A stretch of 64,000 bases of DNA from a virus (lineage: Duplodnaviria > Heunggongvirae > Uroviricota > Caudoviricetes), in IMG/VR virus record IMGVR_UViG_3300031134_000466; one strand, 5' to 3'. This document shows positions 12,332-62,312 of this stretch, one piece after another (within the stretch, counting starts at the first letter, position 1; the number at the start of each line of letters is the position of its first letter). The notes under the pieces were generated by a model. That model saw only the letters and a program-made list of their open reading frames with translations, was not told the DNA's origin and searched no databases. A program made the position numbers and the translations under genes.

Positions 12332-13324
12332 ATGTCAGAAGAAAACAACCTCGAACCTCGTGAGCAGCAGCACCCAGCTTATGAGGCAATCAACTGGAAC
12401 AACGTCGATGAGTTCGACAACGCTGTTTGGCAGAAACTTACCAGTAACTTCTGGTTGCCAGAAAAAGTCTCTGTTTCCAACGACCGTAAAACATGGGAAA
12501 CCTTGTCTGATGCAGAAAAGAAGCTGGTTCTCCATGTCTTTACTGGTCTGACAATGCTTGACACCATTCAGGGTCGTTTCGGTGCTTTGAGTATTATGAA
12601 AGATGCAACTTCGTTGTTCGAAGAAGCTGTGTACACAAACATTGCGTTTATGGAGAATGTTCACGCTAAGAGCTACTCTTCTATCTTCTCTACTCTGTCC
12701 ACCACAAAGGACATTAACCAGTCCTTCAACTGGTCACAGCATAATGAGTTCCTTCGTAAGAAGGAAGAAATCATCATGTCCTACTACCGCGACACCGAGC
12801 ACCCTTTAGCTCCTCAGCGTCGTAAGATTGCTTCAACCCTGCTTGAATCCTTCTTGTTCTACTCAGGTTTCTACCTTCCTCTGTACATGAACTCACAGGC
12901 TAAGCTCACAAACTCAGCTGACATCATCAAGCTGATTATTCGTGACGAAGCAGTTCACGGTTTCTACATTGGTAAAAAGTACCAGGACAGCATTGAAGAA
13001 CTGGATGAGGCTACTAAAGCTGAACTCAAAGACTTCACCTACGAATTGCTTCTCGACTTGTTCGATAACGAAATTCGTTACACTCAGGACTTGTATGATG
13101 AGTTCGGTCTTACCGAAGACGTAATTGCTTTCTTGAAGTACAACGCAAACAAGGCTCTTGCTAACTTGGGCTATGAGCCTTTGTTCCCTGACCCTGAAGT
13201 ATCTGCAGCTATCACTTCGCAGCTCAACGCAGGTTCTGACACGCACGACTTCTTCAGTGGAAGTGGAGCATCCTACGTGATGACCACTCGTGAAGAGTTG
13301 GCTGAAGAGGACTGGGACTTCTAA
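12332..13324 (+). CDS. nrdF: ribonucleotide reductase small (beta) subunit, class Ib-like
   Basis: 330 aa. 'AINWN', di-iron ExxH motifs 'ENVHAKSYS' and 'RDEAVHG', C-terminal acidic tail 'EEDWDF'. Confidence 0.9.
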   Translation: MSEENNLEPREQQHPAYEAINWNNVDEFDNAVWQKLTSNFWLPEKVSVSNDRKTWETLSDAEKKLVLHVFTGLTMLDTIQGRFGALSIMKDATSLFEEAVYTNIAFMENVHAKSYSSIFSTLSTTKDINQSFNWSQHNEFLRKKEEIIMSYYRDTEHPLAPQRRKIASTLLESFLFYSGFYLPLYMNSQAKLTNSADIIKLIIRDEAVHGFYIGKKYQDSIEELDEATKAELKDFTYELLLDLFDNEIRYTQDLYDEFGLTEDVIAFLKYNANKALANLGYEPLFPDPEVSAAITSQLNAGSDTHDFFSGSGASYVMTTREELAEEDWDF

Positions 13325-13391: not shown

Positions 13392-13615
13392 TGTGTTAAC
13401 AGACCAGAAACGTATCCCATTAGCCGCAGACGCCCATCTGCTGCCCTAATACCCTTCATTCACTCAAGTGGACGGCTTACACTACCCAACCTCTTAGACG
13501 CCGTTTTAGTAAGAAACTGCTTTATAGGGTTACCGAGTTGCATTCTTCGGACCTTCCTGCTAAGGTAAGGAACATACAGTCCTTATTCGTTCCACCAGGA
13601 AGAAACAAAGCTTTT

Positions 13616-14050
13616 ATGTTTGATGAGATTGGCTCGGCGCCTCAGACCCGGTACAAGCCCCGTGCGGGCGTTGTGCAGTTCCCTGAGAAGACTGCTCTTT
13701 CCAACCGTCAGCGTTCCTACCTGGATATTGCTGTTCGCCTCGCTGAGTCCTCGGATGCAAGCTTCAAGCACGGAGCAGTTATTGTTCGTGGCGGCAGCGT
13801 TCTTGCTGTCGGAGTGAACAAGTGGAAGAATCGTGACCTTCCTCCGACTCCCCCTGATGTGTACAACCCTGACATCACTGTCCACGCTGAGATTGATGCT
13901 CTTTCCCGAGTGAAGGACGCTCGCGGAACCACTGTCTACATTGCCCGAGTCACCCGTAGCGGCGACGAGCGTTTCTCTCGCCCCTGCAACCGTTGCGAGA
14001 AGGCTCTCATCGAGGCTGGAGTCAAGCGGGTCGTCTACACGGTAGGCTAA
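13616..14050 (+). CDS. CMP/dCMP-type zinc deaminase
   Basis: 'HAEIDAL' and 'PCNRCEKAL' zinc motifs. ATG 13616 has AGGAAG upstream. The track TTG at 13538 is possible but less likely. Confidence 0.75.
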   Translation: MFDEIGSAPQTRYKPRAGVVQFPEKTALSNRQRSYLDIAVRLAESSDASFKHGAVIVRGGSVLAVGVNKWKNRDLPPTPPDVYNPDITVHAEIDALSRVKDARGTTVYIARVTRSGDERFSRPCNRCEKALIEAGVKRVVYTVG

Positions 14051-17597: not shown

Positions 17598-18269
17598 ATG
17601 ACTGATAAGAAAACCTACCCCTCCCCTTCACTCCTGGTCCTTGCTTTCCACGAAACCTACGGCCAGCCTGTTCGCACTGAACCTGTTTATGATGTTCCTG
17701 AGAAGCTTATGCGATCCGAACTGATCCTTGAAGAAGCAAGCGAGTTCTGGGACGCCAACAAAGCTAACGATTTAGTCGAAATGGCTGATGCTTTAGCTGA
17801 CCTTGTTTACGTAGCTTACGGTGCAGCAATCACCCATGGTGTCGACGTTGACGCTTCCTTCGGTGGACACAAAGAAACCCCTGCTGAGGTCTTGCGTGTT
17901 GTTCACCGCCGCCAGCGTCAGAAGATTCGTCCAATTCCAACATTGAACGTTCTTTCCCGCAACATGACTGCCTCAGGTTTGAACAAAACAGCTGTTGCTT
18001 ACGACAACTACGTTCGTCACACTCTTGAAGGTAACCCAGACCAGATTCGTGCGTTATTGACCACAATCATCTCCAGTGCTTACTTTGCAGCTTTTTCCTT
18101 AGGCATCGACTTGGATGACGTTCTGGAAGAAGTGCAGCGTTCCAACATGTCCAAGCTTGGTGAAGACGGCAAGCCAATCTACCGTGAAGATGGAAAGGTT
18201 CTCAAAGGACCAAACTTCTTCACACCTGACATTGCAGCTGTTTTGAAGCGTCAAGGTTGGAAAGGCTGA
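17598..18269 (+). CDS. MazG-like all-alpha NTP pyrophosphohydrolase
   Basis: 223 aa. 'EEASEFWDA' and 'EMADALADLVYV' metal-binding helices. C-terminal 'RSNMSKLGEDGKPIYREDGKVLKGPNF'. Confidence 0.75.
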   Translation: MTDKKTYPSPSLLVLAFHETYGQPVRTEPVYDVPEKLMRSELILEEASEFWDANKANDLVEMADALADLVYVAYGAAITHGVDVDASFGGHKETPAEVLRVVHRRQRQKIRPIPTLNVLSRNMTASGLNKTAVAYDNYVRHTLEGNPDQIRALLTTIISSAYFAAFSLGIDLDDVLEEVQRSNMSKLGEDGKPIYREDGKVLKGPNFFTPDIAAVLKRQGWKG

Positions 18270-18429: not shown

Positions 18430-21147
18430 ATGGCCACCCTCATCGGCGTATCAGGAAAAATTGCGTCAGGTAAAGATTACTTGACTGACAAGCTTGTAAA
18501 CGAACTGAAACGTCTTGGTTTTACCATCGACTACACAGCCTTCGCTGCACCCCTGAAGCAGGAACTCAACGAAATCATCTCTCTGATTCGAGCTTTCCCT
18601 GAACAGGATGAACTGACTCTTTCTTTCTCCATCGCTCGTAATCTGGACATCAACTACGATGATGCTCTTCTGATTGCTACTAATCTGAGAACAGAAGTGC
18701 TTGCAGATGAAACTCTCAACGGTTACTCACGAACAGTCAAAATTCGTGAATCTCTTCAGTATCTTGGTACAGAGATTCGCAGGAAGCAGCGTCCTGAATA
18801 CTGGACTGACTTGTTCTTGAACTTCGTCAACAATTCAGAAACAGATTTCATTTTCGTTTCAGATGCACGTTTTCCTAATGAAATGGACACGGTTGTCGAC
18901 AATCAAGGTGTTGCTCTACGTCTTGACATTCCAGAAGAAGTTCTTGCAGAGCGTCGAAACAAGCGTGACGGCATCAAATACACTGATGAGCAGTTGAATC
19001 ATATCTCAGAAACTGCACTGGATGATTACACCAAATTTGACATGATGATTGGTGTGCAGTTCAACGAACGTGAAATCGTAGAGAATATCCTGAAAAAAGT
19101 TGAACGACTTCAGGAACTTCCTGCAAAAGCTTCTCGCGTCCTGAAAGCCAAAATCGCAGAGCATACACCTTCAGTGTCAGATAAGAAAGATGTTTACCCA
19201 GAGGTGAATTTACCTGAAGGCCAGTACAAAGTGTTGTCTTTGTTTGCAGGTGCAGGTGGATTAGATTTAGGTTTTGAGTTAGCTGGATTAGAAGCAGTTC
19301 ACGGTAAAGAAAAAGTGGACGCTGCTTACAAAGACAAAAAAGCATTTGACGAGCTCCGCAAAGAGAACCTCATTCACACGGTCTACGTAAATGACAACTT
19401 CAAAGATGCAATAGCTTCCTACCGTCAGAACTTTCCTGAAACGTTTATTGACGAACGAGATATCAAAAAAATCAGCAGCTTCCCTGATGCAGACCTTCTG
19501 TTAGGTGGATTCCCTTGCTTCCCTAAAGGAACAGGTGTAGCTACAGAGACAGGTTACAAAAACATTGAAGATGTCGAGAAAGGTGATTTTGTTCTCACTC
19601 ATGAAGGTCGTTACCGTGAAGTAACAGACACCATGACACGCAATGTGAACAAATCAGCCACTCTACATGCTTACGGTTCTCTTCCTTTGGTCTCAACGGT
19701 GAATCATCCTTACTGGGTGAAAGAAACTGTCGATTCTGAACCTAAATGGGTTCATGCTGAGAACATTCAGCCAGGTTGGTTTGTGTCTCATCCAATCAGC
19801 ACATTCAGTACAGATGAAGTAACCGAAAAAGAAGCCAAGTTTGCTTACTTAGCCGGCGTCTTCGCTCAGTGTGGTACAAAAACTTTGAACGACGAGCACA
19901 AGCCAAGCTATCTCACTCCTTACAATGATGAGGAGTTCCTGGCTTTGCTGGCTGAAATTGATGCTGTCTGTTCAAAAGAAGGCAAAAACGTCATCGTCCA
20001 CAGTGAACAGCTGAACAAGATGATGAAATTGTTCGGAACTACCAAATGGAACAAAGTCATTCCTGAAGAGGTCCACCAGAAACCACGAGCTTGGCAGAAA
20101 GCTTTCCTTGACGGCTTCCTGTTCCACAACTCTGACCAGGAAGTGCACAGCAAGAACTTGGCTGTTGGCGTGGCTCGAATTATTCGTAGTTTGAACCCTA
20201 CACAGGATGTTATCGTGTCCTCACCCAAATACAGTTCCTGGATTGTAACTGCAACTGACACTACCGTAGCTCATCATGATGACAACTATGTATGGGTTCC
20301 TGTGGAGCGTTTGCAAGTAAGAAACGAAATGGGAGTACTTCCTGTTTACGATATTACTGTAGCCGAAGACGAATCATTCGTAGCAGATGGATTTGTAGTT
20401 CACAACTGCCCTGGCTTCTCAGCAGCAGGTCTTCGCATGTTAGATGACCCTCGCAACTTCCTGTACCTGCATTTCGTACGAGCTGTTGTTGACGCTCAAC
20501 CAAAGATTTTCGTAGCAGAAAACGTAAAAGGTCTACTCACTCATGGTCAAGGTGAAGCTTTCAACCAGATAGTCGAAGACTTTGCAGCAGCAGGTTACAC
20601 CATCTACTACAAGCTGATGAAAGCAATTCAGCATGGTGTACCTCAGATGAGAGAGCGATTGATTATTGTTGGTGTGCGAAACGACATTGATTTTGAATAC
20701 CAGCATCCTGCTGCCACTCATGGTGAAGGTCTACTTCCATACAAAACTCAAAGAGACGCTTTCTACGATTTGAGGGACCTGAACGATGAACACTACGAAG
20801 GAGACTTCTCTTCTCGCTACCGTTCCAGAAGGTTCAAACTGGACTGGGATGTACCGTCAAAGACCATTTTGGCAACAGGGCGGCACCTGCCTTTGCACCC
20901 TGACGGAGTGCCTCAGGAGAAGCTGGAGCAGGACTTGTGGAGTTTAGACGCTGCAGACCGTAGATTCACTGTAAGAGAAGCTGCACGAATCCAGACATTC
21001 CCTGACTGGTATGATTTCGTGACAACCTCTCGCGGAACAACCAACACAGTCCTGGAGAAACAGTACCGTCAGATAGGTAACGCTGTTCCTGTCGAACTGG
21101 GACGAGTTGTTGCTGAACCTATTGTTCAGTTCCTGAAAAGTCTGTAA
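18430..21147 (+). CDS. dNMP-kinase-like P-loop domain fused to DNA (cytosine-5) methyltransferase, interrupted by an intein
   Basis: 905 aa. N-terminal 'GVSGKIASGKDY' and 'VSDARFPNE'. MTase motif I 'LFAGAGGLDLGF', IV 'GGFP|C..', VI 'ENVKGL', X 'GNAVPV'. Confidence 0.85.
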   Translation: MATLIGVSGKIASGKDYLTDKLVNELKRLGFTIDYTAFAAPLKQELNEIISLIRAFPEQDELTLSFSIARNLDINYDDALLIATNLRTEVLADETLNGYSRTVKIRESLQYLGTEIRRKQRPEYWTDLFLNFVNNSETDFIFVSDARFPNEMDTVVDNQGVALRLDIPEEVLAERRNKRDGIKYTDEQLNHISETALDDYTKFDMMIGVQFNEREIVENILKKVERLQELPAKASRVLKAKIAEHTPSVSDKKDVYPEVNLPEGQYKVLSLFAGAGGLDLGFELAGLEAVHGKEKVDAAYKDKKAFDELRKENLIHTVYVNDNFKDAIASYRQNFPETFIDERDIKKISSFPDADLLLGGFPCFPKGTGVATETGYKNIEDVEKGDFVLTHEGRYREVTDTMTRNVNKSATLHAYGSLPLVSTVNHPYWVKETVDSEPKWVHAENIQPGWFVSHPISTFSTDEVTEKEAKFAYLAGVFAQCGTKTLNDEHKPSYLTPYNDEEFLALLAEIDAVCSKEGKNVIVHSEQLNKMMKLFGTTKWNKVIPEEVHQKPRAWQKAFLDGFLFHNSDQEVHSKNLAVGVARIIRSLNPTQDVIVSSPKYSSWIVTATDTTVAHHDDNYVWVPVERLQVRNEMGVLPVYDITVAEDESFVADGFVVHNCPGFSAAGLRMLDDPRNFLYLHFVRAVVDAQPKIFVAENVKGLLTHGQGEAFNQIVEDFAAAGYTIYYKLMKAIQHGVPQMRERLIIVGVRNDIDFEYQHPAATHGEGLLPYKTQRDAFYDLRDLNDEHYEGDFSSRYRSRRFKLDWDVPSKTILATGRHLPLHPDGVPQEKLEQDLWSLDAADRRFTVREAARIQTFPDWYDFVTTSRGTTNTVLEKQYRQIGNAVPVELGRVVAEPIVQFLKSL
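19516..20406 (+). mobile_element. class 1 intein (297 aa) with degenerate LAGLIDADG-type homing-endonuclease insert
   Basis: Starts 'CFPKGTGVATETG' and has block B 'TVNHPYWV'. 'YLAGVFAQCG' and 'FLDGFLFHNSD' are LAGLIDADG-like. Ends 'VYDITVAEDESFVADGFVVHN' followed by the +1 Cys of 'CPGFSAAG'. Confidence 0.85.
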
Positions 21148-21762
21148 TCAGTTGATGGCGTGAATGCGGTTCAACGGCCACATCACGAACTTAGGCTGGC
21201 CCAGGATGCTATCCACTGGCACGAAAGGGTCATTAGGGTGGTACCTGGAGTCAGCTGAGTTCAACCGGTTGTCGCCCAGGACAAACACTTGCCCTGCTGG
21301 GACAGTGTAAGAGAATTCTTTGTTGACATCGTTCACACCATCTTTGATGTAATTCTCATTAAGTTCCTCGCCATTGAGAAGAAGCTTCCCATCATCAGAG
21401 CAGCAAGAGATGGTGTCACCACCAACAGCTATCACACGTTTCACAAACACTGTTCCAGCAGGTTCACCCCAAGATGCTGGAGGGTTGAAAACGACAACAG
21501 TGCCACGGTCAGGAGCCTGCCTGTTGTCCAAAGCAGGAACAGATACCATGTAATCCTTGACTTGCAAAGTATTCGTCATGGAGGAAGAAGGGACAACATA
21601 GCTGTCCACGAAGAATAGATTCAGAATGATTCCTACTACCAGACCAAAGATGATCGTGTCGAGGAAACCAATTTTGTGTTTTTTCTTAGAACGAGTTACA
21701 ACCTCAGAGGAGGGGGTAATGTCGTCGTCCATCAAAATTCTTCCTATCATTACAGTAACCAT
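21148..21762 (-). CDS. lepB: signal peptidase I
   Basis: 204 aa. TM segment, catalytic Ser box 'SSSMTNTL', Lys box 'VFVKRVIAVGGD', 'GDNRLNSADSR'. Confidence 0.85.
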   Translation of the reverse strand: MVTVMIGRILMDDDITPSSEVVTRSKKKHKIGFLDTIIFGLVVGIILNLFFVDSYVVPSSSMTNTLQVKDYMVSVPALDNRQAPDRGTVVVFNPPASWGEPAGTVFVKRVIAVGGDTISCCSDDGKLLLNGEELNENYIKDGVNDVNKEFSYTVPAGQVFVLGDNRLNSADSRYHPNDPFVPVDSILGQPKFVMWPLNRIHAIN

Positions 21763-21881: not shown

Positions 21882-23186
21882 TTGATTTCAACACTACGAC
21901 ACTCCCAGAAATTTCAAGACAGCTTTGTTGTCTGGATTTTTGTACTTCTTTTCGCCGGTCAGGGTTTCAGGAACCTAATCGGCCTCATCTGTTACGGCAC
22001 TATCAGCCTGGTGACTGTAAGCGTAGCCGTTTGGCTCTTTTGGAATACCTGGAGTAAACGCCGAACCCCGTTTTTGCTGGGTGCTTTTGTAACTTTAGCA
22101 GCTCTGTCCACAATTTGGTCCACTTACCGTCTGGAAACATTCATAGCCAGTATCATTCTGGCGGCCACCAGCCTCATAGGACTTTTAGTTGCCTCAGCTT
22201 ACAAATGGAAAAAACTGATAGTCCTTTTAGGTTACGGACTGCAAATCTGCGTGGTCGGCAGTTTAGTCTTTGAAACAATCGTCGCCACTGTGTTTAGGAG
22301 ACCAGTTCTACCTGTCTTCATGGAATTTGTGGGCCTTACTGACATTGAGAAAAATTCTGGTGTGTTGAACTGGTCAGAGAACAATTTGTTTGCAGGTGGT
22401 CCAATTCAGGGTTTCATGGGTAACAGAAACTTGTTAGGTTTTGTTGCATTGCTTCTAATTGTTGTGTCAGTAGTGACTTTGTTGGAGAAACTCACAAACA
22501 AATGGGTGAGCCTTAGCTGGATAGCTGTAGGGTTAGGAACACATTTTCTGACAGTCTCAGCTACCATCTCTTTGGCTCTGCTGGCTGTTGTCATCATCGT
22601 TGCTGGTGCGATGTTTATACGATTTACGCCAGAAAAGTTCAGACGGATAACATCCTGGTCCTTCGTGGGACTCTGTATCGTTCTTGGTGTTGCTGCGTTG
22701 AAGAACTACGACAAACTGTTTGGTGTTTTTGACCGTGACCCGAACCTTACTAACCGCACTGAAATCTGGAAACGAGTGGCTGATCTGGCTTTGCAGAAAC
22801 CTGAAGGTTGGGGATGGGTTAGTTACTGGCCTGTATGGAAAGAGCCTTTCAACGGAATACTCACATTAGGTGGAGTGCCTGTAGCTCATGCCCATAATGC
22901 ATATTTGGATGTATGGTTCCAACTGGGTGTAGTTGGCGTCATTCTTCTAGCAGCTATGACTTTGTACATTTTAGGAAGCTCTTGGCGTTTAGTGGAACAT
23001 GCAGGAAGGAGTTCAAGCTTCTTACCTCTTGGTTTGTTCCTTCTTGGTGGTTGCTTGTTCATTCAAGCTCTTACAGAATCCCGTCTGCTACTTGAGGGTA
23101 ATTGGATGCTGTTGACTGTGTTGCTTGTGTATACGCCATCTGCTTTCCGAAAAACAAACCTGAAGGCGTTAGAGCCGATATCGTAA
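21882..23186 (+). CDS. O-antigen ligase/Wzy_C-domain-like polytopic membrane protein
   Basis: 434 aa, about 10-12 TM segments. Loop motif 'HAHNAYLDVWFQLGVVG'. TTG start per the track. Confidence 0.65.
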   Translation: MISTLRHSQKFQDSFVVWIFVLLFAGQGFRNLIGLICYGTISLVTVSVAVWLFWNTWSKRRTPFLLGAFVTLAALSTIWSTYRLETFIASIILAATSLIGLLVASAYKWKKLIVLLGYGLQICVVGSLVFETIVATVFRRPVLPVFMEFVGLTDIEKNSGVLNWSENNLFAGGPIQGFMGNRNLLGFVALLLIVVSVVTLLEKLTNKWVSLSWIAVGLGTHFLTVSATISLALLAVVIIVAGAMFIRFTPEKFRRITSWSFVGLCIVLGVAALKNYDKLFGVFDRDPNLTNRTEIWKRVADLALQKPEGWGWVSYWPVWKEPFNGILTLGGVPVAHAHNAYLDVWFQLGVVGVILLAAMTLYILGSSWRLVEHAGRSSSFLPLGLFLLGGCLFIQALTESRLLLEGNWMLLTVLLVYTPSAFRKTNLKALEPIS

Positions 23187-23433: not shown

Positions 23434-24246
23434 ATGTGCAAACGCAAACCATACCCTCGTTGCAGCTACCATGCTCGCATCAAACTTGAAGCTGCAGAAA
23501 AGTCTGGTGATCTTGAACGCATCAAGCTTGCAAGAAGGAACTATTTCACTTCATTAGCTGGTATTGCTGACCTCAAAGCTCAGGGTAAAGATGCATTAGC
23601 TGCAAAATATGAGACTCGTAGAGCAAATCTCATTGCTCAAGCTGAACGTGAGACTAACCTCCGCAAGACACCCCTGGTTTTGGCGTTGGATGTAGACAAC
23701 ACCAGTGGTGACTTCACAGAATCCATTCGTAACCATGTCATGAAGACACAAGGACTTACTCCTGAACAGGCTGAAACACTTCTTCCTAGCCCTCCAACTC
23801 ACTACTCTTTCGTAGACTCAGGCTGGTTCACTGACGTTAACTCATTCCTGGATGCTTTCCATTCAGCGGAAGAGAATGGTGTTTACTCCAAGATGAAAGC
23901 TTTTGACGGAGTAAGCAAGACTCTTCGCACTTTGGTCAGTAATCGTGACGTTGAAGTTCGTGTTGTGACGGCCCGTGGTAACAGATGGAATGAAGAGACC
24001 CGTCAGTGGTTGCGTCGTCATCGTATTCCTTTCACTTCCATCACTCACACTGAGGACAAAGAGAAAGTCCCAGGTATCGATGTGTACATTGATGACTCTG
24101 ACAAGCAGATTAACACTCTGCAGAAGAACGGTAAGACAGTTATTGCGTTCGAGAATGCATACAACGCAACTGTTCCTTCTAAGTATCGTGTAAAGAAGTG
24201 GAAAGAAGTGCCGGCAGTTCTGAAACTCATCGCACAAGCCAAATAA
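23434..24246 (+). CDS. N-terminal C-x7-C-x2-H module fused to HAD-type 5'(3')-deoxyribonucleotidase
   Basis: 270 aa. 'MCKRKPYPRCSYHA' then a helical region, then HAD motif I 'LALDVDNTSGDF' and 'VYIDDSDKQ'. Confidence 0.7.
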   Translation: MCKRKPYPRCSYHARIKLEAAEKSGDLERIKLARRNYFTSLAGIADLKAQGKDALAAKYETRRANLIAQAERETNLRKTPLVLALDVDNTSGDFTESIRNHVMKTQGLTPEQAETLLPSPPTHYSFVDSGWFTDVNSFLDAFHSAEENGVYSKMKAFDGVSKTLRTLVSNRDVEVRVVTARGNRWNEETRQWLRRHRIPFTSITHTEDKEKVPGIDVYIDDSDKQINTLQKNGKTVIAFENAYNATVPSKYRVKKWKEVPAVLKLIAQAK

Positions 24247-39276: not shown

Positions 39277-39328
39277 ATTATGAAAGCCGACCCGACAGAA
39301 ATTCTTTGTCAGGTCGGCTTTCATAATT
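39276..39328. terminator. bidirectional hairpin
   Basis: 22-nt arms aattatgaaagccgacccgaca / tgtcaggtcggctttcataatt (1 mismatch). Confidence 0.8.
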
Positions 39329-40449
39329 CAGTCAGCAGTTTTTCCGTTCAAGTTCCAGAATGGCTTCTCAAACTCAGGCTGAATCATTTTCCAGATGATG
39401 TCAGAGATTTTCTTCTCAGACCTGGTATCAAAATGACCTCCGCTGTGACGAGAGAATAACAAACCAGTAATGCGTTTGTCTTCTTTCTGTACAGCTGCAG
39501 CGTAGTCCTTCTGAGTGTATCCTTCAGGAAGTTCAGAAAGAATACGGTTGTAAGTTTCCTCAACTGTTGCACGCAATTCAGCATGCTCTGCAAGTAGTCG
39601 GTCACGAGTTGTTTCGACATACTCAACGAACTCATCAGGGAGACCAACAATCCATGAAGTGAAGTCACCGTCAGCTACAAGCAGCTCCCAGATGCGACGC
39701 GAAGAAGCACCTGTGATGACACGGTGAAGCTGAACGTAGTCATCCTGTTTCACTTTCACTCGAACATCACTATCCAGGAAGTGAACAACAACGCCTTCTT
39801 TGTTCTCACGACCAGGAGCGGCCAAAGCTTCAGTAAGGCTGTTGTATTCAAACTGCTCAACCTTCAACCAAGTCCATTCATCAACCTGTGATGCTGGTAC
39901 AGAGCGACCTGTTGCTGTGTTCACTCGGGCAATCAAGATGAGGTCATCCAAATCACCGTAGTTAACAACGATACGGTTTGTAGGGTAGATGATTTCCCAG
40001 ATGTAAGTTTCACCAGCAAGTGGCTCCCATTTTCCGTCGTACAGCTCCTGGTAACGTGCTGTGGCATGCAGAGCCTGCTCAGAGCTGAATGAACCTCGTG
40101 TGGAGATGTTCAGTCGACCAGTTTCAGGGTTTACATATGAAACACCCATAGAACCATCTGCTTTGTCTGTGACAACGATAGGTCCAGTCAGTGCATCCTG
40201 AGGAACATCTGGTTCGCCGTGGTTAAAGAACTTACCAAGAGGGCGGGAGACAATCTCCTGGGTGGAACCGTCAACGATAAGTCCTCGTGAAGCTAATGTT
40301 GCAGCGTTCCAGGCTCGGTCAAACTGGCATACCTGTGAGTAGTCAAAGATAGCCAGGTCAAGCGTAGGGTGAACCTGACGATTGATGTGCTTGTTCTGGA
40401 ATTCAGCTGCCCAAAGTTCAGCAGGAGCGATATCGTAAATGTGTACCAT
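39328..40449 (-). CDS. ATP-dependent RNA ligase, paralog A
   Basis: 373 aa. Motif I 'TDKADGSM', 'WEIIYPTNRIVVNY', IV 'NKEGVVVH', V 'VRVKVK'. Confidence 0.75.
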   Translation of the reverse strand: MVHIYDIAPAELWAAEFQNKHINRQVHPTLDLAIFDYSQVCQFDRAWNAATLASRGLIVDGSTQEIVSRPLGKFFNHGEPDVPQDALTGPIVVTDKADGSMGVSYVNPETGRLNISTRGSFSSEQALHATARYQELYDGKWEPLAGETYIWEIIYPTNRIVVNYGDLDDLILIARVNTATGRSVPASQVDEWTWLKVEQFEYNSLTEALAAPGRENKEGVVVHFLDSDVRVKVKQDDYVQLHRVITGASSRRIWELLVADGDFTSWIVGLPDEFVEYVETTRDRLLAEHAELRATVEETYNRILSELPEGYTQKDYAAAVQKEDKRITGLLFSRHSGGHFDTRSEKKISDIIWKMIQPEFEKPFWNLNGKTAD

Positions 40450-42792: not shown

Positions 42793-44685
<1,893 letters not shown>

Positions 44686-50744: not shown

Positions 50745-50774
50745 TTTGACAGCTGGCTGGGTTTCATGGTAAGT
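50745..50774 (+). promoter_or_regulatory. -35 TTGACA / 18 nt / -10 TAAGTT (TGGTAAGTT)
   Basis: Upstream of the Pnkp gene. Argues against the track's TTG 50774 start. Confidence 0.55.
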
Positions 50775-50800
50775 TGGAGTATCTTAAGTTAGGAAACAAA

Positions 50801-51706
50801 ATGTCACAGATAATGCGGATTCACCGTGGAGTGCAAGGCTCTGGTAAATCCACAGAAGCCATCCGTTGGGTGAACCAGGACCCGTTAAACCGTGCCCGTG
50901 TGAACCGTGATGACATTCGTCTCAGCCAGTTCGGCTCCTACGAGCTTCCTCAGGAACTCGAAGTTGCTGTTACCAAAGTAGAGCATGCCATCATCACCGC
51001 ACTTCTTGCTGCACGCAAAAGTGTTGTTGTTGACAATGTGAACCTGAAAGCCAAGTACGTTAAAGAGTACCTGCTTATTGCGGAGAAAGCCAACGTACCT
51101 GTTGTGCATCAGGACTTCCCTGTGGAGTTGGAGACAGCTCTTGCTCGTAACGCTGCTCGTGACCGTAAAGTCCCTGCACATGTGATTGAGACAACATTCA
51201 AGCGTTACATTCAGAGTGGCAAGTTCCCTCCGTTCCCCGTACTTGACTACGAAGCCGCTGCAGCAGGAATCTATGTTCCTGATGAGACTCTGCCTAAAGC
51301 TATCCTTTTGGATGTTGACGGCACAGCCATGAAGATGGGTTCACATCGTGGACCGTTTGACTGGCACAAAGTCATTGATGACGAGCCTAACCCGCCTGTT
51401 GTTGAAACAGTAAAAGCTTTGCATGCTCAGGGCTACAAAGTTGTTGTCATGTCTGGTCGTGATGAAGTCTGCAAAACAGACACGTTACTTTCTCTGGAAG
51501 TAGCTGGTGTTCCTGTGGATGAAATCTACATGAGACCCCACAACGATTACCGTAAAGACAACATCATCAAGCGTGAACTTTTTGATGCTCACATTCGGGA
51601 GCGTTTCAACATCCTGTTAGCTTTGGATGACCGGAACCAGGTTGTGGACGCTTACCGTCGTGAGCTGGGTCTTCCTGTCTTTCAGGTTGACTACGGAGAC
51701 TTCTAA
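50801..51706 (+). CDS. polynucleotide kinase-phosphatase (Pnkp): P-loop 5'-kinase + HAD 3'-phosphatase
   Basis: 'HRGVQGSGKST' and 'LLDVDGT', 'VVMSGRDE', 'ALDDRNQVV'. AGGAAA RBS. Confidence 0.8.
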   Translation: MSQIMRIHRGVQGSGKSTEAIRWVNQDPLNRARVNRDDIRLSQFGSYELPQELEVAVTKVEHAIITALLAARKSVVVDNVNLKAKYVKEYLLIAEKANVPVVHQDFPVELETALARNAARDRKVPAHVIETTFKRYIQSGKFPPFPVLDYEAAAAGIYVPDETLPKAILLDVDGTAMKMGSHRGPFDWHKVIDDEPNPPVVETVKALHAQGYKVVVMSGRDEVCKTDTLLSLEVAGVPVDEIYMRPHNDYRKDNIIKRELFDAHIRERFNILLALDDRNQVVDAYRRELGLPVFQVDYGDF

Positions 51707-51757: not shown

Positions 51758-52729
51758 TTAAATTTCTCGCAGCTGCACAATTGTCAGTTCAGTTGCTTCA
51801 CCTTTTTTATTGACCCTTTTGACTTTCACATCATTAGCAACAACTTCGAATTTTGCACCACGAGGAATGATGAACTCATACTCTCTTGGACCTTGCGATG
51901 AAATAGCTGTGATTGGGGCTCCACTTTTTGTAAGAATCTGTAAAGAAACATTGATGTTGTCTTTGGAAGGTAAATCTTGAGGATTCAAACTTGTCGATAA
52001 GAAGAATTTAGGTTCGTAAGTGCTACCAACAGGGAAATGTTTGTCGAGGTTTTGAGCGTCATCACTTGAATGATATCCTTTTTCATCATAAAGATGATGA
52101 CGGCGGTAAACCATCACGCCTTCTTCTGCTGGTTCGTGTTTAGCAAAAGCATCATCCAGGATAGTTACAGCTGCATCCAACGTTTCAGGTGCAACATTTT
52201 TTGCGTACGGATTTGTTGAAGCTGAAAGATGGCCGTTGATGTCAGCATAGCCATCTTCTGAATACCAGCGAAGAGTAGCTATTTCAGTATCATCCAGTTT
52301 GGCACTCCAGTTTTGGGAATCTGCCATGCTGTTCAACAGGTCAGCATGTTTGTAATGCATCTCTTCAAGAGTGTCACCAGTTTCGAAAAACGTCGGAGAA
52401 GTGTAAGCAGCTTTTTGTGCTTTTTTGTGGGTGATGACTTTACGATCCGCAACAGCAGCTAATCTTCTGGCTCGTTCTTGAGAAAGCGCTTCGTATTCTT
52501 CTGCATGCCATTCCTGCGTTGGATTCTTTTTGATCTGTCTTTCCAAAGACTTTAGATAAGCTGGTGTTAGTTTGTACTCTGCTTCAGCTTTTCTTCTTAC
52601 CGCTATTAGCTTCTCAAGCTCTGGGTCTTTGCGGTTGTCCATGAAAGCACTGAGAACCGCTTGATGAGCTTTAGCGTAGGTGGCTGCAGCATGAGCTGAA
52701 CAACGGGGACCAGGTTTTGGGTAACACAT
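51758..52729 (-). CDS. R-S-ExE ADP-ribosyltransferase 3 with N-terminal C-x7-C-x2-H module
   Basis: 323 aa. 'MCYPKPGPRCSAHAA' is identical to the ART 2 N-terminus. 'VMVYRRH', 'LSTSLN', 'REYEFIIPRG'. Confidence 0.7.
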   Translation of the reverse strand: MCYPKPGPRCSAHAAATYAKAHQAVLSAFMDNRKDPELEKLIAVRRKAEAEYKLTPAYLKSLERQIKKNPTQEWHAEEYEALSQERARRLAAVADRKVITHKKAQKAAYTSPTFFETGDTLEEMHYKHADLLNSMADSQNWSAKLDDTEIATLRWYSEDGYADINGHLSASTNPYAKNVAPETLDAAVTILDDAFAKHEPAEEGVMVYRRHHLYDEKGYHSSDDAQNLDKHFPVGSTYEPKFFLSTSLNPQDLPSKDNINVSLQILTKSGAPITAISSQGPREYEFIIPRGAKFEVVANDVKVKRVNKKGEATELTIVQLREI

Positions 52730-54121: not shown

Positions 54122-55363
54122 ATGTCAACTACAAGAAAACCTCCTTATCATCACAGCGATGGTACAAACTGCTGGACTAAAGATTGTTCGATCAGAGGCC
54201 GTGAAGATACAGAAAAAGCTGCTTTCTTCAAGCAAGTAGAAACAGCTGCTGAGACTGTTGTTCCAACCAATGAATTGCCTCCTCTGTCAGCTTTTCAGAA
54301 AGCCTATGATGATGGTCGCATTGAGTGCAGCCGCCACCCTGAACATCCTTATGTGACTTACAAGTATTCCAGAACAACTCAGTTTGCTTCTGACTGGGAT
54401 GATGTGACCTTAGCGTCTCGTGGTGTCATCTTCAATGAGGAGACAGGCGAGATTGTTGCTCGTCCATTTGCTAAGTTCTTCAACCATAACGAACCGTCAG
54501 TTCCCAGAGACAAATTACATGGCCGTATTAGTGTAACTGACAAGCTGGACGGTTCTTTAGGAATTGGTTATGTTGATGAGAACGGTAAGTTCAACATTGC
54601 AACCTCTGGAAGCTTTATCTCTGAACAGGCAAAACGTTCTACAGAGCTCTATCATGAGCGTTATGAAGGCAACTGGAAGCCAAATCCTAAGTTGACCTAC
54701 ATGTGGGAAATCATCTACCCAGAAAATCGTGTCGTGGTCAACTATGGCGATGAAGATGACTTGCATCTCATCGGTGCTGTCAACAAACGAACTGGTAAAT
54801 CAGTTCCGTTGCGTGACATCAAAGAATGGAAGTGGAAAAGAGCTGAAGAGTACAAAGACTTCTCCTCCTTGGATGCTGTTCTTCACTCTCCTGAAAGAGA
54901 AAACCGTGAAGGTTTCATTGTTCATTACATCGATACTGATACCCGCGTGAAATACAAGCATGCAGATTATCTTGAGCTCCATCGTAACCGTACTGGCGTG
55001 ACTTCCAAAACTATCTGGCGTAAAATGCGTATGGGTGAAGATATGGCAGGTTGGAAAGAGAACATGCCTGAAGAGTTCAGTGAGTTCGTATCCACTCGTC
55101 AAGCTAAAATCACTGCCGGATATAACAAAGAAATTGCCCAAATTACTGATGAGCATGGCACTTTCAAAGCAACTCTTCCTGCTGGTTATGACCGTAAGAC
55201 TTTTGCTACCACTTTGAAAAACTCACCTCTTGTACCAGCCGAAAACAAAGCTTTCGTCATGAACCTTGAGTTCAACGGCAGTGCTGTTGGAAGTGTTGTT
55301 CAATCTCATAAGATTTGGGACCGTGTGAAACCTGAGGACGAGAACACCTTGTGGAACATGTAA
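54122..55363 (+). CDS. ATP-dependent RNA ligase, paralog B (with Cys-containing N-terminal extension)
   Basis: 413 aa. 'TDKLDGSL', 'WEIIYPENRVVVNY', 'NREGFIVH', 'TRVKYK'. Collinear with paralog A. Confidence 0.75.
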   Translation: MSTTRKPPYHHSDGTNCWTKDCSIRGREDTEKAAFFKQVETAAETVVPTNELPPLSAFQKAYDDGRIECSRHPEHPYVTYKYSRTTQFASDWDDVTLASRGVIFNEETGEIVARPFAKFFNHNEPSVPRDKLHGRISVTDKLDGSLGIGYVDENGKFNIATSGSFISEQAKRSTELYHERYEGNWKPNPKLTYMWEIIYPENRVVVNYGDEDDLHLIGAVNKRTGKSVPLRDIKEWKWKRAEEYKDFSSLDAVLHSPERENREGFIVHYIDTDTRVKYKHADYLELHRNRTGVTSKTIWRKMRMGEDMAGWKENMPEEFSEFVSTRQAKITAGYNKEIAQITDEHGTFKATLPAGYDRKTFATTLKNSPLVPAENKAFVMNLEFNGSAVGSVVQSHKIWDRVKPEDENTLWNM

Positions 55364-55746: not shown

Positions 55747-56412
55747 ATGAAGAACACATACGGAATTCTCGGCGGATATGGGGCGGTAGCCACCCTACAT
55801 CTCCAGCAGCTGCTCGTGAAGCGAGTCCTCAGCACTGGACAGTACGCTGATATTGCCTTCCCTCGTATGGTAATTTCCAATCTGCCTGAAGACATCATCA
55901 ATGCTGAAGGACATATCAGCAGCCTTGGTAGCCTGCGGACTGAACTTGGTAAAACAGCTCCTCTATTCCAAGGAGCCACAGATGTTTATGTCATTTGTAA
56001 CACCTTCCATGTCGAAGAAGAGTTCATGCAGCGAGTCTTCGCTAACAAACTACATTCTGTTCCGGCTTTAACCAGTCAAGCTGTCGTAGATGCTGGATAC
56101 TCCAAACCTCTTATCGTAGGTTCCAAGCTGACTTCTCAGGATAACCTGTACAGTCATACAGCTTACACCTCAACTAACATGTTTGCGGATGAGCTAATCA
56201 CTGCTGGAATGAAGTACCAGACATCTCACTCTCAGCTGGCAGATGTCATAGCTGCTGCCAAACAGGCTAGCTCAGACTGCATTGTTTTAGGTTGCACAGA
56301 TTTGTCCGTGATGGCTGACACTCTCCGAACCATGACTGCACTTCCCGTAATCGACTCCGTTGAAGCAGTCGCCAACCATATTTACAACTCCCATACGAAA
56401 GATGAATCGTGA
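55747..56412 (+). CDS. Asp/Glu/hydantoin racemase-superfamily enzyme (two-Cys type)
   Basis: 221 aa. 'YGILGGYGAVAT', 'VYVICNTFH', 'IVLGCTDLS', 'PVIDSV'. Confidence 0.75.
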   Translation: MKNTYGILGGYGAVATLHLQQLLVKRVLSTGQYADIAFPRMVISNLPEDIINAEGHISSLGSLRTELGKTAPLFQGATDVYVICNTFHVEEEFMQRVFANKLHSVPALTSQAVVDAGYSKPLIVGSKLTSQDNLYSHTAYTSTNMFADELITAGMKYQTSHSQLADVIAAAKQASSDCIVLGCTDLSVMADTLRTMTALPVIDSVEAVANHIYNSHTKDES

Positions 56413-57374
56413 AAGTCTACAACGACACAGTAACCATGACTGCAGAGCTGGCTCAGACCTTAGAGCAATTGAGAGCTGTGCGGGCTTTTGACGCTACAGA
56501 ATGGATTGAGCGTAAGGTTGTCCTAATCAACCAGTACTTCGCTCAGAACAAGCTCTCAGGGGCTGTAGTAGGTGTTTCTGGTGGCATCGACTCAGCTGTA
56601 GCCCTTTCACTTCTTGTCAAAGCATCCCAGCAAGACAACAGCCCAATTCAGAAGATTGTCCCTCTTCTACTTCCTGCTCTTTCTTACGAAGGTGCAACTA
56701 ACCAAGACGGGGCAGTTCAGCAGGCTACTGACCTATGCCAGAACCTTGGACTGAAGCCAGCTGTTTTCACTAAGCTCACATCTCTTTCCCAAGTGATTAC
56801 TTCTGAACTGGAAGACATTCTGGACATCAAATCAACAGACTGGGCTAAAGGACAGCTAGTGGCTTACACCAGAACCCCAGTCCTGTACAACACCTGCTCA
56901 ATCCTTACTGACGCCGGCTACCCTGCACTGGTTGTAGGAACCACAAACCTTTCCGAAGGTGGATACCTCGGTTATGTCGGAAAAGCTTCAGATGGTATGG
57001 TTGACCTGCAAGTAATTTCTGATTTGTACAAGTCAGAAGTGTACAAAGTCGCAGCTTTACTTGAAGTTCCTGAAAGCGTTATGAAAGCTACTCCTACAGG
57101 GGACATGTACGACGGTCGTGAAGATGAAACAGTTTTCGGAGCTTCTTACGACTTCGTAGAGCTGTTTCATCTATGGCTACAGGCACGCAGCGTCCCATTG
57201 AAACTTCTTCGAGATGCCCACTTTGTCACAGGAGCTAAAAACCTGCAAAAACTGCACGACTACAACGCACATAAGTACACCTACGGAACTCCATCCATTC
57301 ACCTGGACATTATGAACGCAGCAATCCCAAACGGATGGAACAATCAGCCTTGGAGGCCCCAGAATGGCAACTAA
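56409..57374 (+). CDS. divergent NadE-family PP-loop amidotransferase (NAD or NMN synthetase-like)
   Basis: 321 aa. 'GVSGGIDSAV', 'VVGTTNLSEGGYLGYVGKASDGMVD', 'ATPTGDMY..EDETVFGASYDFVE'. GTGA overlap with the upstream stop codon. Confidence 0.7.
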   Translation: MKVYNDTVTMTAELAQTLEQLRAVRAFDATEWIERKVVLINQYFAQNKLSGAVVGVSGGIDSAVALSLLVKASQQDNSPIQKIVPLLLPALSYEGATNQDGAVQQATDLCQNLGLKPAVFTKLTSLSQVITSELEDILDIKSTDWAKGQLVAYTRTPVLYNTCSILTDAGYPALVVGTTNLSEGGYLGYVGKASDGMVDLQVISDLYKSEVYKVAALLEVPESVMKATPTGDMYDGREDETVFGASYDFVELFHLWLQARSVPLKLLRDAHFVTGAKNLQKLHDYNAHKYTYGTPSIHLDIMNAAIPNGWNNQPWRPQNGN

Positions 57375-62238: not shown

Positions 62239-62268
62239 TCACAAAAACGTGCTTTTTCGTCAATATGA

Positions 62269-62277
62269 CGATATACT
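62269..62277 (+). promoter_or_regulatory. -10 element (CGATATACT)
   Basis: 35-nt leader with an AAGGAAGG RBS before ATG 62313. Confidence 0.5.
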
Positions 62278-62312
62278 GTAATAAGAATGGTCTAAGGAAG
62301 GAAACCCGTATC

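What the first reader, a model, noticed from the sequence alone, without database searches (positions are those of the whole stretch)
19516..20406. Intein inserted exactly at the catalytic Cys of a C5-cytosine methyltransferase
Motif IV reads 'GGFP' + [CFPKGTG...FVVHN] + 'CPGFSAAG'. Removing the 297-aa element restores 'GGFPCPGFSAAG', so the +1 extein nucleophile is the methyltransferase's own catalytic cysteine. Blocks A, B ('TVNHPYWV'), F and G are canonical. The two LAGLIDADG-like blocks ('YLAGVFAQCG', 'FLDGFLFHNSD') appear to have lost their acidic catalytic residues, which suggests a decayed homing endonuclease. Methyltransferase activity would depend strictly on splicing, giving a possible post-translational switch. 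I do not recall Dcm being a common intein host.
Basis: partly seen in the sequence, partly recalled or inferred. Interest (0 to 1): 0.6.

Follow-up and report, generated by a model that had tools for sequence, protein, structure and literature searches.

The report
Intein splitting a phage cytosine methyltransferase
A self-splicing protein element (intein) really does sit on the catalytic cysteine of a DNA cytosine methyltransferase in what looks like a giant uncultured phage; this turns out to be a common intein site, but related genomes have lost the methyltransferase and kept the intein.

Summary
Window 19516-20406 (+) encodes a 297-aa class-1 intein: Cys1, block B TVNH, C-terminal His-Asn, +1 Cys. 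It lies in a 905-aa ORF (18430-21147) made of a dNMP-kinase-like domain and a C5 DNA methyltransferase. Removing it restores GGFPCPGFSAAG, and the +1 Cys aligns with catalytic Cys71 of M.HaeIII. A 52%-identical syntenic orthologue carries the uninterrupted motif. An AlphaFold model matches endonuclease-bearing inteins such as PI-SceI. Both LAGLIDADG acidic positions are replaced (C119, N205). Three alleles show strong purifying selection on exteins and intein, so the gene is functional and splicing is expected, though not demonstrated.

The site is not rare. Of the 147 nearest intein clusters, 88 have both flanks matching this same motif-IV site, and cultured phages (Nyseid, Asteriusvirus ph0011, Lana) carry inteins there. 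C-5 methylases are already listed as intein hosts. The window element is therefore a new member of a known kind.

One thing was unexpected. At the same syntenic locus, related 0.7-0.9 Mb contigs have a decayed or deleted methyltransferase but an open intein ORF, usually fused to the kinase and sometimes without its splicing residues. One close relative has lost the intein too, so whether it was domesticated or is slowly decaying remains open.

The parts
18430..21147 (+). Whole precursor ORF, 905 aa: dNMP-kinase-like domain, linker, C5-MTase N-extein, intein, C5-MTase C-extein (stop at 21145-21147)
   Evidence: ORF list; Pfam and NCBIfam domain matches; 97-98% identical alleles on 788-kb and 65-kb metagenome contigs
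18430..19125 (+). N-terminal dNMP (deoxynucleotide monophosphate) kinase-like P-loop domain, aa 1-232
   Evidence: PF21448 DNMK scores 30.6 bits against a cut-off of 27.1. About 30% identity to phage 'deoxynucleoside monophosphate kinase' genes. Stand-alone 223-233-aa homologues are the commonest state in relatives.
19183..19515 (+). C5-MTase N-extein: motif I (FAGAGG) through to GGFP of motif IV
   Evidence: PF00145 and alignment to M.HaeIII; 62% identical to the intein-less orthologue
19516..20406 (+). 297-aa class-1 intein (Cys1 ... His296-Asn297)
   Evidence: Hint_2 and TIGR01443 above their cut-offs; AlphaFold pLDDT 87.8 with Foldseek matches to PhoVMA, TliVMA, PI-SceI and PI-PfuI inteins; pN/pS 0.035-0.05 among three alleles
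19696..19707 (+). Intein block B, T61-V-N-H64 (TxxH)
   Evidence: Sequence. Kept in P0004 and P0015, lost in P0003 and P0005.
19843..19875 (+). Degenerate LAGLIDADG motif 1, AYLAGVFAQCG; the catalytic acid position is Cys119
   Evidence: It lies at the C-terminal end of helix 104-119 of the model. Across 86 related inteins this column is D or E in 46; it is C in all 6 members of the clade.
20104..20136 (+). Degenerate LAGLIDADG motif 2, FLDGFLFHNSD; the catalytic acid position is Asn205
   Evidence: This column is D or E in 56 of 86 related inteins; it is N or S in all 6 members of the clade
20407..20409 (+). +1 extein Cys (aa 660): splice-junction nucleophile and predicted catalytic nucleophile of the methyltransferase
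   Evidence: Aligns with Cys71 of M.HaeIII (1dct; Ser in the C71S entry 3ubt)
20407..21144 (+). C5-MTase C-extein: rest of motif IV, motifs VI (ENV), VIII (QMRER), target-recognition region, IX and X (GNAVPV)
   Evidence: PF00145 best stretch at aa 660-899; end-to-end alignment with M.HaeIII at E=4e-43; pN/pS 0.005-0.013

Best explanation
The 905-aa ORF encodes a precursor in which a vertically inherited class-1 intein interrupts motif IV of a functional C5 DNA methyltransferase. The intein's homing endonuclease is predicted to be dead. The methyltransferase is itself fused to a dNMP kinase.

Inferred steps after translation:
1. Cys363 (intein Cys1) makes the N-S acyl shift at the Pro362-Cys363 bond.
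2. The thioester is passed to Cys660 (+1).
3. Asn659 cyclises, assisted by His658, and releases the 297-aa intein.
4. An S-N shift leaves a 608-aa kinase-methyltransferase with an intact GFPCPGFS catalytic loop.

Until then the methyltransferase cannot work, because its nucleophile is separated from the rest of motif IV by 297 residues. The LAGLIDADG domain has lost both metal-binding acids, so the element no longer homes and persists by descent.

Shown here: the anatomy, the insertion site, the fold, the intein-less orthologue, and purifying selection on all four domains. Inferred: that splicing occurs, that the enzyme methylates DNA (possibly at a HaeIII-like site), and that the endonuclease is inactive.
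For: - Domain matches are above curated cut-offs.
- All class-1 splicing residues are present: C1, T61/H64, H296-N297 and C+1.
- In-silico splicing gives a protein that aligns end-to-end with M.HaeIII at E=4e-43, with the +1 Cys on catalytic Cys71.
- The syntenic orthologue P0002 has the uninterrupted motif.
- The AlphaFold model (pLDDT 87.8, pTM 0.80) matches endonuclease-containing inteins at E=1e-13 to 1e-10 and I-DmoI at about 4e-5.
- Three alleles (window, L008, L016) differ at 25-36% of synonymous sites. Their pN/pS is 0.005-0.013 for MTase-C, 0.06-0.11 for MTase-N, 0.035-0.05 for the intein and 0.065-0.10 for the kinase. The methyltransferase is therefore maintained, which requires splicing.
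- Synonymous divergence in the intein is similar to that in the exteins, which fits vertical descent.
- The acidic LAGLIDADG residues are absent in all six clade members but present in most relatives.
- The same site is occupied by inteins in 88 of the 147 nearest clusters and in cultured phages.
Against: - No biochemical evidence of splicing or methylation exists.
- Pfam Intein_splicing is below its gathering score (29-31 bits against 35.8), and direct sequence matches to solved inteins are weak (E>=0.03).
- The -1 residue is Pro, which from my own knowledge of commercial intein vectors is unfavourable for N-terminal cleavage in some inteins. However, the whole methyltransferase-site intein family shares it.
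- Motif IV reads PCP rather than the usual PCQ, although the intein-less orthologue shares this.
- The intein is as strongly conserved as the kinase, which is more than splicing alone obviously demands.
Confidence: 0.85

Rival explanations
1. The Hint plus dead-LAGLIDADG module has a function of its own for the genome, for example DNA or protein binding linked to the kinase, in addition to or instead of being a parasite. On this view it is kept when the methyltransferase is lost.
For: At the same syntenic locus the methyltransferase is gone but the intein ORF is open:
- L011 has a MTase-N pseudogene with 5 in-frame stops in about 120 codons, next to an intact 297-codon intein with all splicing residues and its own ATG. 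At that stop density, about 12 stops would be expected in 297 codons.
- L001-3, L004 and L005/L018-20 have the kinase fused directly to the intein with no extein left.
- P0003 and P0005 have lost C1, the block B His and the terminal Asn, yet remain open.
- pN/pS is about 0.14 for L011 against L004, though this estimate is rough because synonymous sites are near saturation.
- pN/pS is 0.11-0.49 within the splicing-dead lineage; a binomial test on one pair (9 nonsynonymous of 18 differences) gives p=0.008 against neutrality.
- The kinase tree nests the methyltransferase-bearing clade among methyltransferase-less ones (90% bootstrap for L001 as basal). Deletion junctions differ between lineages. 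This suggests at least two independent losses that each spared the intein.
- Motifs such as VQC[GS]T.TLN and FG..KW...PE are invariant in the dead endonuclease domain.
Against: - L047/L048 are 81-85% identical in nucleotide sequence to L005 across the flanks. They have a stand-alone 223-aa kinase and no relic, so the module is dispensable.
- Stand-alone kinases are the commonest state in the wider family.
- Constraint in the splicing-dead lineage is clearly relaxed relative to the kinase.
- The S26 peptidase and Wzy trees do not resolve the order of losses.
- No function can be named.
- L011 is a single short-read contig.
Confidence: 0.3
2. The methyltransferase-less intein relics are simply slow decay. 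Because the relic is translationally fused to an essential kinase, truncating or destabilising mutations are selected against, since a misfolded tail would harm the kinase. Only a clean deletion is tolerated, and that is the end state.
For: - Constraint is relaxed but not absent (pN/pS 0.11-0.49 against 0-0.10 for the kinase).
- Splicing residues are lost in P0003 and P0005.
- The clean-deletion state exists, with a terminator hairpin directly after the kinase, in L048.
- The states form a graded series: intact; MTase pseudogene with intact intein; kinase-intein fusion; kinase alone.
Against: In L011 the intein is not fused to the kinase. A frameshift and stops lie between them, yet the intein is fully intact while the adjacent N-extein has decayed. 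P0004 keeps every splicing residue with only a 2-residue C-extein.
Confidence: 0.45
3. Splicing is conditional, for example through a redox-sensitive Cys1/Cys+1 pair or sensing of DNA or nucleotides. The intein would then act as a post-translational switch that times methyltransferase activity during infection.
For: - Both junction nucleophiles are Cys, and the insertion is in the active site.
- Conditional splicing is documented for other active-site inteins, for example RadA (PMC5238726, listed).
- The intein is under stronger constraint than many parasitic inteins would need.
Against: There is no direct evidence. Active-site location is the general rule for inteins and is explained by homing-site conservation. 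The same site is used by hundreds of unrelated methyltransferases.
Confidence: 0.15
4. The insert does not splice. The methyltransferase is dead and the ORF serves only as a kinase with a long tail.
For: Methyltransferase loss is evidently tolerated in relatives. Pro at -1 may hinder the first step (my own knowledge).
Against: MTase-C has only 1-2 nonsynonymous against 45-62 synonymous differences between alleles (pN/pS 0.005-0.013). All methyltransferase motifs and all splicing residues are intact.
Confidence: 0.04

Closest known systems
Inteins at motif IV (Pro|Cys) of C5 DNA methyltransferases in cultured phages: Lactobacillus phage Nyseid, Escherichia Asteriusvirus ph0011 and relatives, Pseudomonas phage Lana
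   Same: The insertion point is identical: GFP|C...HN|CQDIS, GGFP|C...HN|CQAWS and SPD|C...HN|CTHFS. All have the class-1 layout, Cys1 and Cys+1, and a LAGLIDADG-type central domain. They are 23-26% identical over the full length, and Nyseid, ph0011 and Lana are among the top-ranked tblastn hits in the phage collection.
   Different: Those inteins keep canonical LAGLIDADG acids, for example GRFMGDG and GYMDADG in ph0011, and are 310-350 aa long. The window clade has C and N/S at those positions and scores more than 499 bits within the clade against 150 bits or less to everything else. In GenBank they are annotated only as methyltransferases. Their hosts are not kinase fusions.
Endonuclease-containing class-1 inteins with solved structures (PI-SceI/VMA1, PhoVMA, TliVMA, PI-PfuI)
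   Same: Hint fold with an inserted two-lobed LAGLIDADG domain; Foldseek E=1e-13 to 1e-10, TM-score (normalised to the query) 0.5-0.7; Cys1, His-Asn, +1 Cys chemistry.
   Different: Sequence identity is 10-17%. There is no extra DNA-recognition region. The catalytic acids are missing here. The host protein is different.
Actinobacteriophage methylase inteins (Kelley et al. 2016, PMC5050341; Gogarten-lab surveys PMC9957025 and bioRxiv 10.1101/2025.01.02.630785)
   Same: Phage DNA-modification enzymes as intein hosts. The 2025 survey lists C-5 methylase (IPR001525) among proteins previously reported to contain inteins.
   Different: The 2016 mycobacteriophage cases are N6/N4 methylases. None of the passages I read in these papers describes the catalytic-Cys site, kinase fusions or extein loss.
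Yeast HO endonuclease and WHO elements (PMC7282813)
   Same: Intein-derived Hint plus LAGLIDADG proteins that exist without the exteins they once interrupted. This is the precedent for an intein outliving or leaving its host protein.
   Different: HO and WHO keep an active endonuclease and have a known role or mobility. They are eukaryotic. Here the nuclease acids are gone, the relic is usually fused to a kinase, and no function is known. I took this paper from its abstract only.
Bacterial intein-like (BIL) and Hedgehog C-terminal Hint domains
   Same: The kinase-intein-CS architecture of P0004 resembles a C-terminal autoprocessing Hint domain. BIL and Hog structures appear among the weaker fold matches.
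   Different: The relic is clearly derived from a methyltransferase intein: L011 still has extein remnants and the relic has a LAGLIDADG insert. It is not a member of the BIL or Hog families.

Membership tests
Class-1 intein | Hint fold with blocks A, B, F and G | tested here: met
   Hint_2 at 34.4 bits (cut-off 28.4) and TIGR01443 at 34-36 bits (cut-off 15.6); AlphaFold model with Foldseek matches to solved inteins
Class-1 intein | Nucleophile (Cys/Ser/Thr) at intein position 1 and at extein +1; C-terminal His-Asn; block B TxxH | tested here: met
   C1, T61-x-x-H64, H296-N297, C+1
Class-1 intein | In-frame insertion in a conserved site of a host protein, with intein-less homologues that read straight through | tested here: met
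   P0002 reads GGFPCPGFSAAG at the same syntenic locus; the spliced sequence aligns with M.HaeIII without a gap at the junction
Class-1 intein | Protein splicing demonstrated (ligated exteins plus free intein) | not testable with these tools
   Only indirect support: strong purifying selection on both exteins
LAGLIDADG homing endonuclease (intein-borne) | Alpha-beta-beta-alpha-beta-beta-alpha fold with two LAGLIDADG helices | tested here: met
   I-DmoI matches at E about 4e-5 over about 175 columns, plus full-length matches to PI-SceI and PI-PfuI; helices at 104-119 and 191-201 of the model
LAGLIDADG homing endonuclease (intein-borne) | Acidic residue (D/E) at the end of each LAGLIDADG helix for metal binding | tested here: not met
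   C119 and N205 in the window, and C plus N/S in all six clade members. Across 86 related inteins (which include the six clade members), D or E occurs at these columns in 46 and 56. It has the fold of the family but should not be called an active endonuclease.
C5 DNA cytosine methyltransferase (PF00145 / TIGR00675) | Motifs I (FxGxG), IV (PC), VI (ENV), VIII (QxRxR), IX and X (GNAVP) in order, with a target-recognition region between VIII and IX | tested here: met
   PF00145 at E=5.6e-60 and TIGR00675 at 180.6 bits against 100.65; end-to-end alignment of the spliced sequence with M.HaeIII
C5 DNA cytosine methyltransferase (PF00145 / TIGR00675) | DNA C5-methylation activity and sequence specificity | not testable with these tools
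   Similarity to M.HaeIII extends through the recognition region, but GGCC frequency gave no usable signal
Phage dNMP kinase (PF21448) | P-loop kinase domain matching the DNMK profile | tested here: met
   30.6 bits against a cut-off of 27.1, as a partial match over aa 95-158; about 30% identity to annotated phage dNMP kinases. Substrate not testable.
Domesticated intein (HO-like) | Intein-derived protein kept under selection without its host protein, with a demonstrated function | tested here: inconclusive
   Open ORFs and pN/pS below 1 in methyltransferase-less relatives, but a close relative lacks the relic entirely and no function is known. This applies to the relatives, not to the window copy.

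The most novel reading that the evidence does not exclude
In this clade of 0.7-0.9 Mb phage-like genomes, an intein with a dead homing endonuclease has become independent of the gene it invaded. The methyltransferase exteins were lost at least twice, while the Hint-LAGLIDADG module stayed under purifying selection. It is found either as a self-excising C-terminal domain of the dNMP kinase (P0004), as a permanent kinase fusion without splicing residues (P0003, P0005), or as its own ORF (P0015). That would make it a viral or prokaryotic counterpart of the HO/WHO domestication, with the window gene as the ancestral, still-embedded state.
Probability: 0.3. Interest if true: 0.7.

Novelty: new member of a known kind. 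Interest (0 to 1): 0.45.

Why it matters
For the window gene itself, little changes. It adds one more intein to a large but barely described allele family at the catalytic cysteine of C5 methyltransferases. It also corrects the impression that this site is unusual.

Three things may be useful.

1. The family naturally splices with Pro at -1 and Cys at +1. From my own knowledge, that junction is awkward for engineered inteins, so these could be practical parts for protein engineering.

2. The locus offers a rare natural series of five states:
   - intein-free methyltransferase
   - invaded methyltransferase
   - methyltransferase pseudogene with an intact intein
   - kinase-intein fusion
   - kinase alone

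   This lets one ask what happens to an intein when its host gene dies. Standard theory says the intein should die with it.

3. It marks a methyltransferase-positive versus methyltransferase-negative polymorphism in a group of very large uncultured phage-like genomes. That polymorphism could be tied to host restriction systems.

Tried and rejected
- **Megablast against the phage collection.** Searching the gene gave no match. tblastn of the neighbouring genes found only distant phage hits.
- **Scan of GTDB species genomes.** Only kinases at 35% identity or less turned up, with no organism assignment. The source is called 'phage-like' from gene content: T4-type PNKP, two RNA ligases, ADP-ribosyltransferases, MazG, a YqaJ exonuclease, and CTAG/GATC avoidance. 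No capsid or terminase gene was found among the window ORFs I scanned.
- **Word-indexed protein search with the intein alone.** It returned just two hits. The exhaustive HMMER search was needed.
- **GGCC (HaeIII-like) site frequency.** Comparing methyltransferase-bearing and methyltransferase-less relatives gave no consistent pattern, so specificity is left open.
- **Antisense ORF 19920-20261 inside the intein.** I considered it as a hidden endonuclease or as a cause of the conservation, and rejected it. It has no Pfam match. The antisense ORF in L019 is in a different relative frame. High synonymous divergence in the sense frame (pS 0.33) is incompatible with an overlapping gene.
- **Direct phmmer against PDB sequences.** The intein matches were weak (E>=0.03). 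The fold comparison was decisive instead.
- **S26 peptidase and Wzy trees.** Neither resolves the order of methyltransferase losses.
- **Literature.** I found no paper describing the catalytic-Cys intein site of C5 methyltransferases or extein-less phage inteins. Only a list entry names C-5 methylase as a known intein host.
- **Other inteins in the window.** There is none.
Full report
**1. The observation**

ORF 18430..21147 (+) encodes 905 aa. Reading the DNA puts TGC at 19516-19518, directly after GGT GGA TTC CCT (GGFP). AAC is at 20404-20406 and is followed by TGC CCT GGC TTC TCA (CPGFS). The insert is 891 nt, or 297 codons, in frame. It spans aa 363-659, and the +1 Cys is aa 660.

Pfam places C-5 DNA_methylase on both sides of the insert (E=5.6e-60). 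Hint_2 covers the start of the insert at 34.4 bits, above its 28.4 cut-off. Intein_splicing scores 29-31 bits, which is below its cut-off. NCBIfam gives the intein C-terminal splicing region at 34-36 bits against 15.6, and dcm at 180.6 bits against 100.65.

**2. What it is**

*The insertion site.* Deleting the insert in silico gives a 343-aa methyltransferase that aligns end-to-end with M.HaeIII (1dct, E=4.4e-43). 'llggfpcpgfsaag' lies over 'iiGGPPCQSWSEGG'. The +1 Cys falls on Cys71, the residue changed to Ser in entry 3ubt. Motifs I, IV, VI, VIII, IX and X are all there.

*The splicing residues.* The intein has Cys1, block B T61-V-N-H64, a block F/G region (VYDITV...FVADGFVVHN) and His296-Asn297.

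*The fold.* An AlphaFold model built from five clade sequences has pLDDT 87.8 and pTM 0.80. Foldseek matches it to endonuclease-bearing inteins (PhoVMA, TliVMA, PI-SceI, PI-PfuI) at E=1e-13 to 1e-10. The central domain matches I-DmoI at about 4e-5. The central domain therefore has a LAGLIDADG fold.

*The endonuclease.* In a profile alignment of 86 related inteins, the two catalytic columns hold D or E in 46 and 56 cases. All six members of this clade have C at the first and N or S at the second. Loss of nuclease activity remains an inference.

*The N-terminus.* The first 232 aa form a dNMP-kinase-like domain (PF21448 above its cut-off). It is about 30% identical to annotated phage dNMP kinases.

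**3. The intein-less allele and the state of the gene**

P0002 (609 aa) has the same kinase-methyltransferase fusion without the insert and reads GGFPCPGFSAAG. It is 52% identical over the best local alignment and comes from a 696-kb contig. It sits in the same gene order: MazG, kinase-MTase, S26 signal peptidase (antisense), then NT5C. The Wzy-type gene seen in the window is absent there.

Three intein-containing alleles (window, L008 on a 788-kb contig, L016) differ at 25-36% of synonymous sites in most domains but hardly at all at nonsynonymous sites:

| Domain | pN/pS |
|---|---|
| Kinase | 0.065-0.10 |
| MTase N-extein | 0.06-0.11 |
| Intein | 0.035-0.05 |
| MTase C-extein | 0.005-0.013 |

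The methyltransferase is therefore a maintained, functional gene. That is only possible if the intein splices. The intein's synonymous divergence is like that of the methyltransferase exteins, which fits vertical inheritance.

**4. How common the site is**

An exhaustive HMMER search of 1.84 billion representative proteins with the clade profile gave 6357 hits at E<=1e-3. Three clade members scored above 499 bits, and the next hit scored only 151 bits.

Of the 147 next-best clusters, 88 have both flanks of the form ...P|C...HN|C..[ST], which is motif IV of C5 methyltransferases. Of those 88, 63 were independently recognised as methyltransferases by phmmer.

Cultured phages carry inteins at exactly this point:
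- Lactobacillus phage Nyseid: GFP|C...HN|CQDIS
- Escherichia Asteriusvirus ph0011: GGFP|C...HN|CQAWS
- Pseudomonas phage Lana: SPD|C...HN|CTHFS

A 2025 survey lists C-5 methylase among proteins previously reported to contain inteins. The 2016 mycobacteriophage cases are N6/N4 enzymes. The host and site are therefore not unusual, and the window element is a new, divergent, endonuclease-dead member of a large allele family.

**5. An unexpected finding in relatives**

The same syntenic locus in related contigs shows further states.

- **L011 (protein P0015).** The kinase is a separate 237-aa ORF. The methyltransferase N-extein survives only as a pseudogene, 35% identical and with five in-frame stops in about 120 codons. 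The C-extein is deleted apart from a few recognisable bases. The 297-codon intein, however, is intact with every splicing residue. It starts at a new ATG (MRNFPKADVVLDGFS|C...) and ends HN|CP-stop. At the pseudogene's stop density, about 12 stops would be expected in the intein.
- **L001-3 (P0004).** The kinase is joined directly to the intein, which ends HN|CS-stop with all splicing residues kept.
- **L004 (P0003) and L005/L018-20 (P0005, on 878-883-kb contigs).** These have the same fusion but without Cys1, the block B His and the terminal Asn.

Evidence for continued constraint on these relics:
- No intein ORF contains a stop.
- pN/pS is about 0.14 between L011 and L004, although synonymous sites are close to saturation.
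- Within the splicing-dead lineage, pN/pS is 0.11-0.49 against 0-0.10 for the kinase. For one pair (9 nonsynonymous of 18 differences) a binomial test against neutrality gives p=0.008.

Evidence on the number of losses:
- A kinase-domain tree rooted on the intein-less orthologue places L001 as basal (90% bootstrap). The methyltransferase-bearing clade is nested among methyltransferase-less lineages.
- Deletion junctions differ between lineages.
- Together these suggest at least two independent losses that each spared the intein. Two other markers do not resolve this.

Evidence against a necessary function:
- L047/L048 (858-kb contig) are 81-85% identical in nucleotides to L005 across the flanks. 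They have a stand-alone 223-aa kinase followed directly by a terminator-like hairpin, with no relic.
- Stand-alone kinases are the commonest state in the wider family.

The relic is therefore dispensable. The data fit either exaptation or a slow decay in which a tail fused to an essential kinase must stay foldable until it is cleanly deleted. I cannot decide between them. L011 argues for the former, L048 for the latter.

**6. Mechanism**

The best-supported account for the window gene is ordinary class-1 protein splicing that restores the catalytic loop of a functional kinase-methyltransferase. The intein is immobile and inherited vertically (confidence 0.85). Dependence of the methyltransferase on splicing follows from the geometry of motif IV. 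A regulatory switch is possible but unsupported.

**7. Context**

The window has uniform G+C of about 45% and no tRNA. Its gene content is phage-like:
- Nucleotide metabolism: RNR small subunit, dCMP deaminase, MazG, NT5C
- DNA and RNA transactions: YqaJ-type exonuclease, T4-type PNKP, two RNA ligases
- Several ADP-ribosyltransferases, PARP, DnaK, NAD synthases

CTAG and GATC are strongly avoided, at observed/expected ratios of 0.06 and 0.22. No close relative exists in the phage collection or in GTDB genomes. Relatives lie on contigs of 0.5-1.0 Mb. A very large uncultured phage is the likeliest source. This is an inference, because no structural gene was seen among the window ORFs I scanned.

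**8. Verdict**

As an intein site it is ordinary, so it is a new member of a known kind. Interest is moderate because of the extein-loss series in relatives.

Noticed in passing
L011 5447-6712; L001 58-1668; L004 6001-7689; L005 8001-9662; L019 3287-4948: At the locus syntenic with window 18430-21147, related contigs have lost the methyltransferase exteins, either as a pseudogene with 5 stops or by complete deletion. They keep an open 297-315-codon intein ORF, usually fused to the kinase. Two lineages have also lost the splicing residues.
   Followed up: yes
L048 5001-5672 (858-kb contig), L047: A relative 81-85% identical in nucleotides to L005 across the flanks has a stand-alone 223-aa kinase followed by a terminator-like hairpin, with neither methyltransferase nor intein relic. 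This is the apparent end state of the series.
   Followed up: partly
window 18430-19515 with 20407-21144: A dNMP kinase fused in one polypeptide to a C5 DNA methyltransferase is an unusual architecture. In the searches run here it appeared only in this clade (window, P0001, P0002), and most relatives have the kinase alone. It sits among nucleotide-metabolism genes: RNR small subunit 12332-13324, dCMP deaminase 13538-14050, MazG 17598-18269 and NT5C 23434-24246.
   Followed up: partly
window 19513-19518 and the flanks of 88 related inteins: The whole methyltransferase-site intein family has Pro (or Pro-Asp/Glu) at -1 and Cys at +1. From my own knowledge, Pro at -1 is considered unfavourable for N-terminal cleavage in commonly used inteins, so these may be adapted to it.
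   Followed up: no
window 1-64000: Short palindromes are strongly avoided. Observed/expected ratios are CTAG 0.06, GATC 0.22, GCGC 0.27 and TTAA 0.38. GCGC avoidance is absent in the relatives L005, L019 and L006.
   Followed up: partly
window 39328-40449 (-), 50774-51706 (+), 54122-55363 (+): A T4-type polynucleotide kinase-phosphatase and two T4-type RNA ligases are present. This is the gene set of a phage tRNA-repair pathway.
   Followed up: no
window 26372-27676, 28539-29579, 30500-31465, 51758-52729 (-): A PARP catalytic domain with a WGR domain, plus three ADP-ribosyltransferase (exoenzyme/ART-type) genes. Two NAD synthase genes lie at 56409-57374 and 62265-63158.
   Followed up: no
window 42826-44685; 21148-21762 (-); 21882-23186: Cell-like genes in a phage-like context: a full-length DnaK/Hsp70 (50-52% identical to copies in 484-642-kb uncultured 'huge phage' records), a type I signal peptidase and an O-antigen-ligase-like membrane protein.
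   Followed up: partly
Contigs carrying homologues of the kinase: Homologues of the window's kinase lie on metagenome contigs of 0.5-1.0 Mb (788,683; 858,429; 878,612; 883,042 bp, and one reported at 1,000,729 bp). None matches a GTDB species genome or a deposited phage closely. If viral, these would be among the largest phage genomes.
   Followed up: partly
window 19920-20261 (-): A 113-aa antisense ORF lies inside the intein. It has no Pfam match, is not conserved in frame in relatives, and is incompatible with the high synonymous divergence of the sense frame. It is probably spurious.
   Followed up: yes
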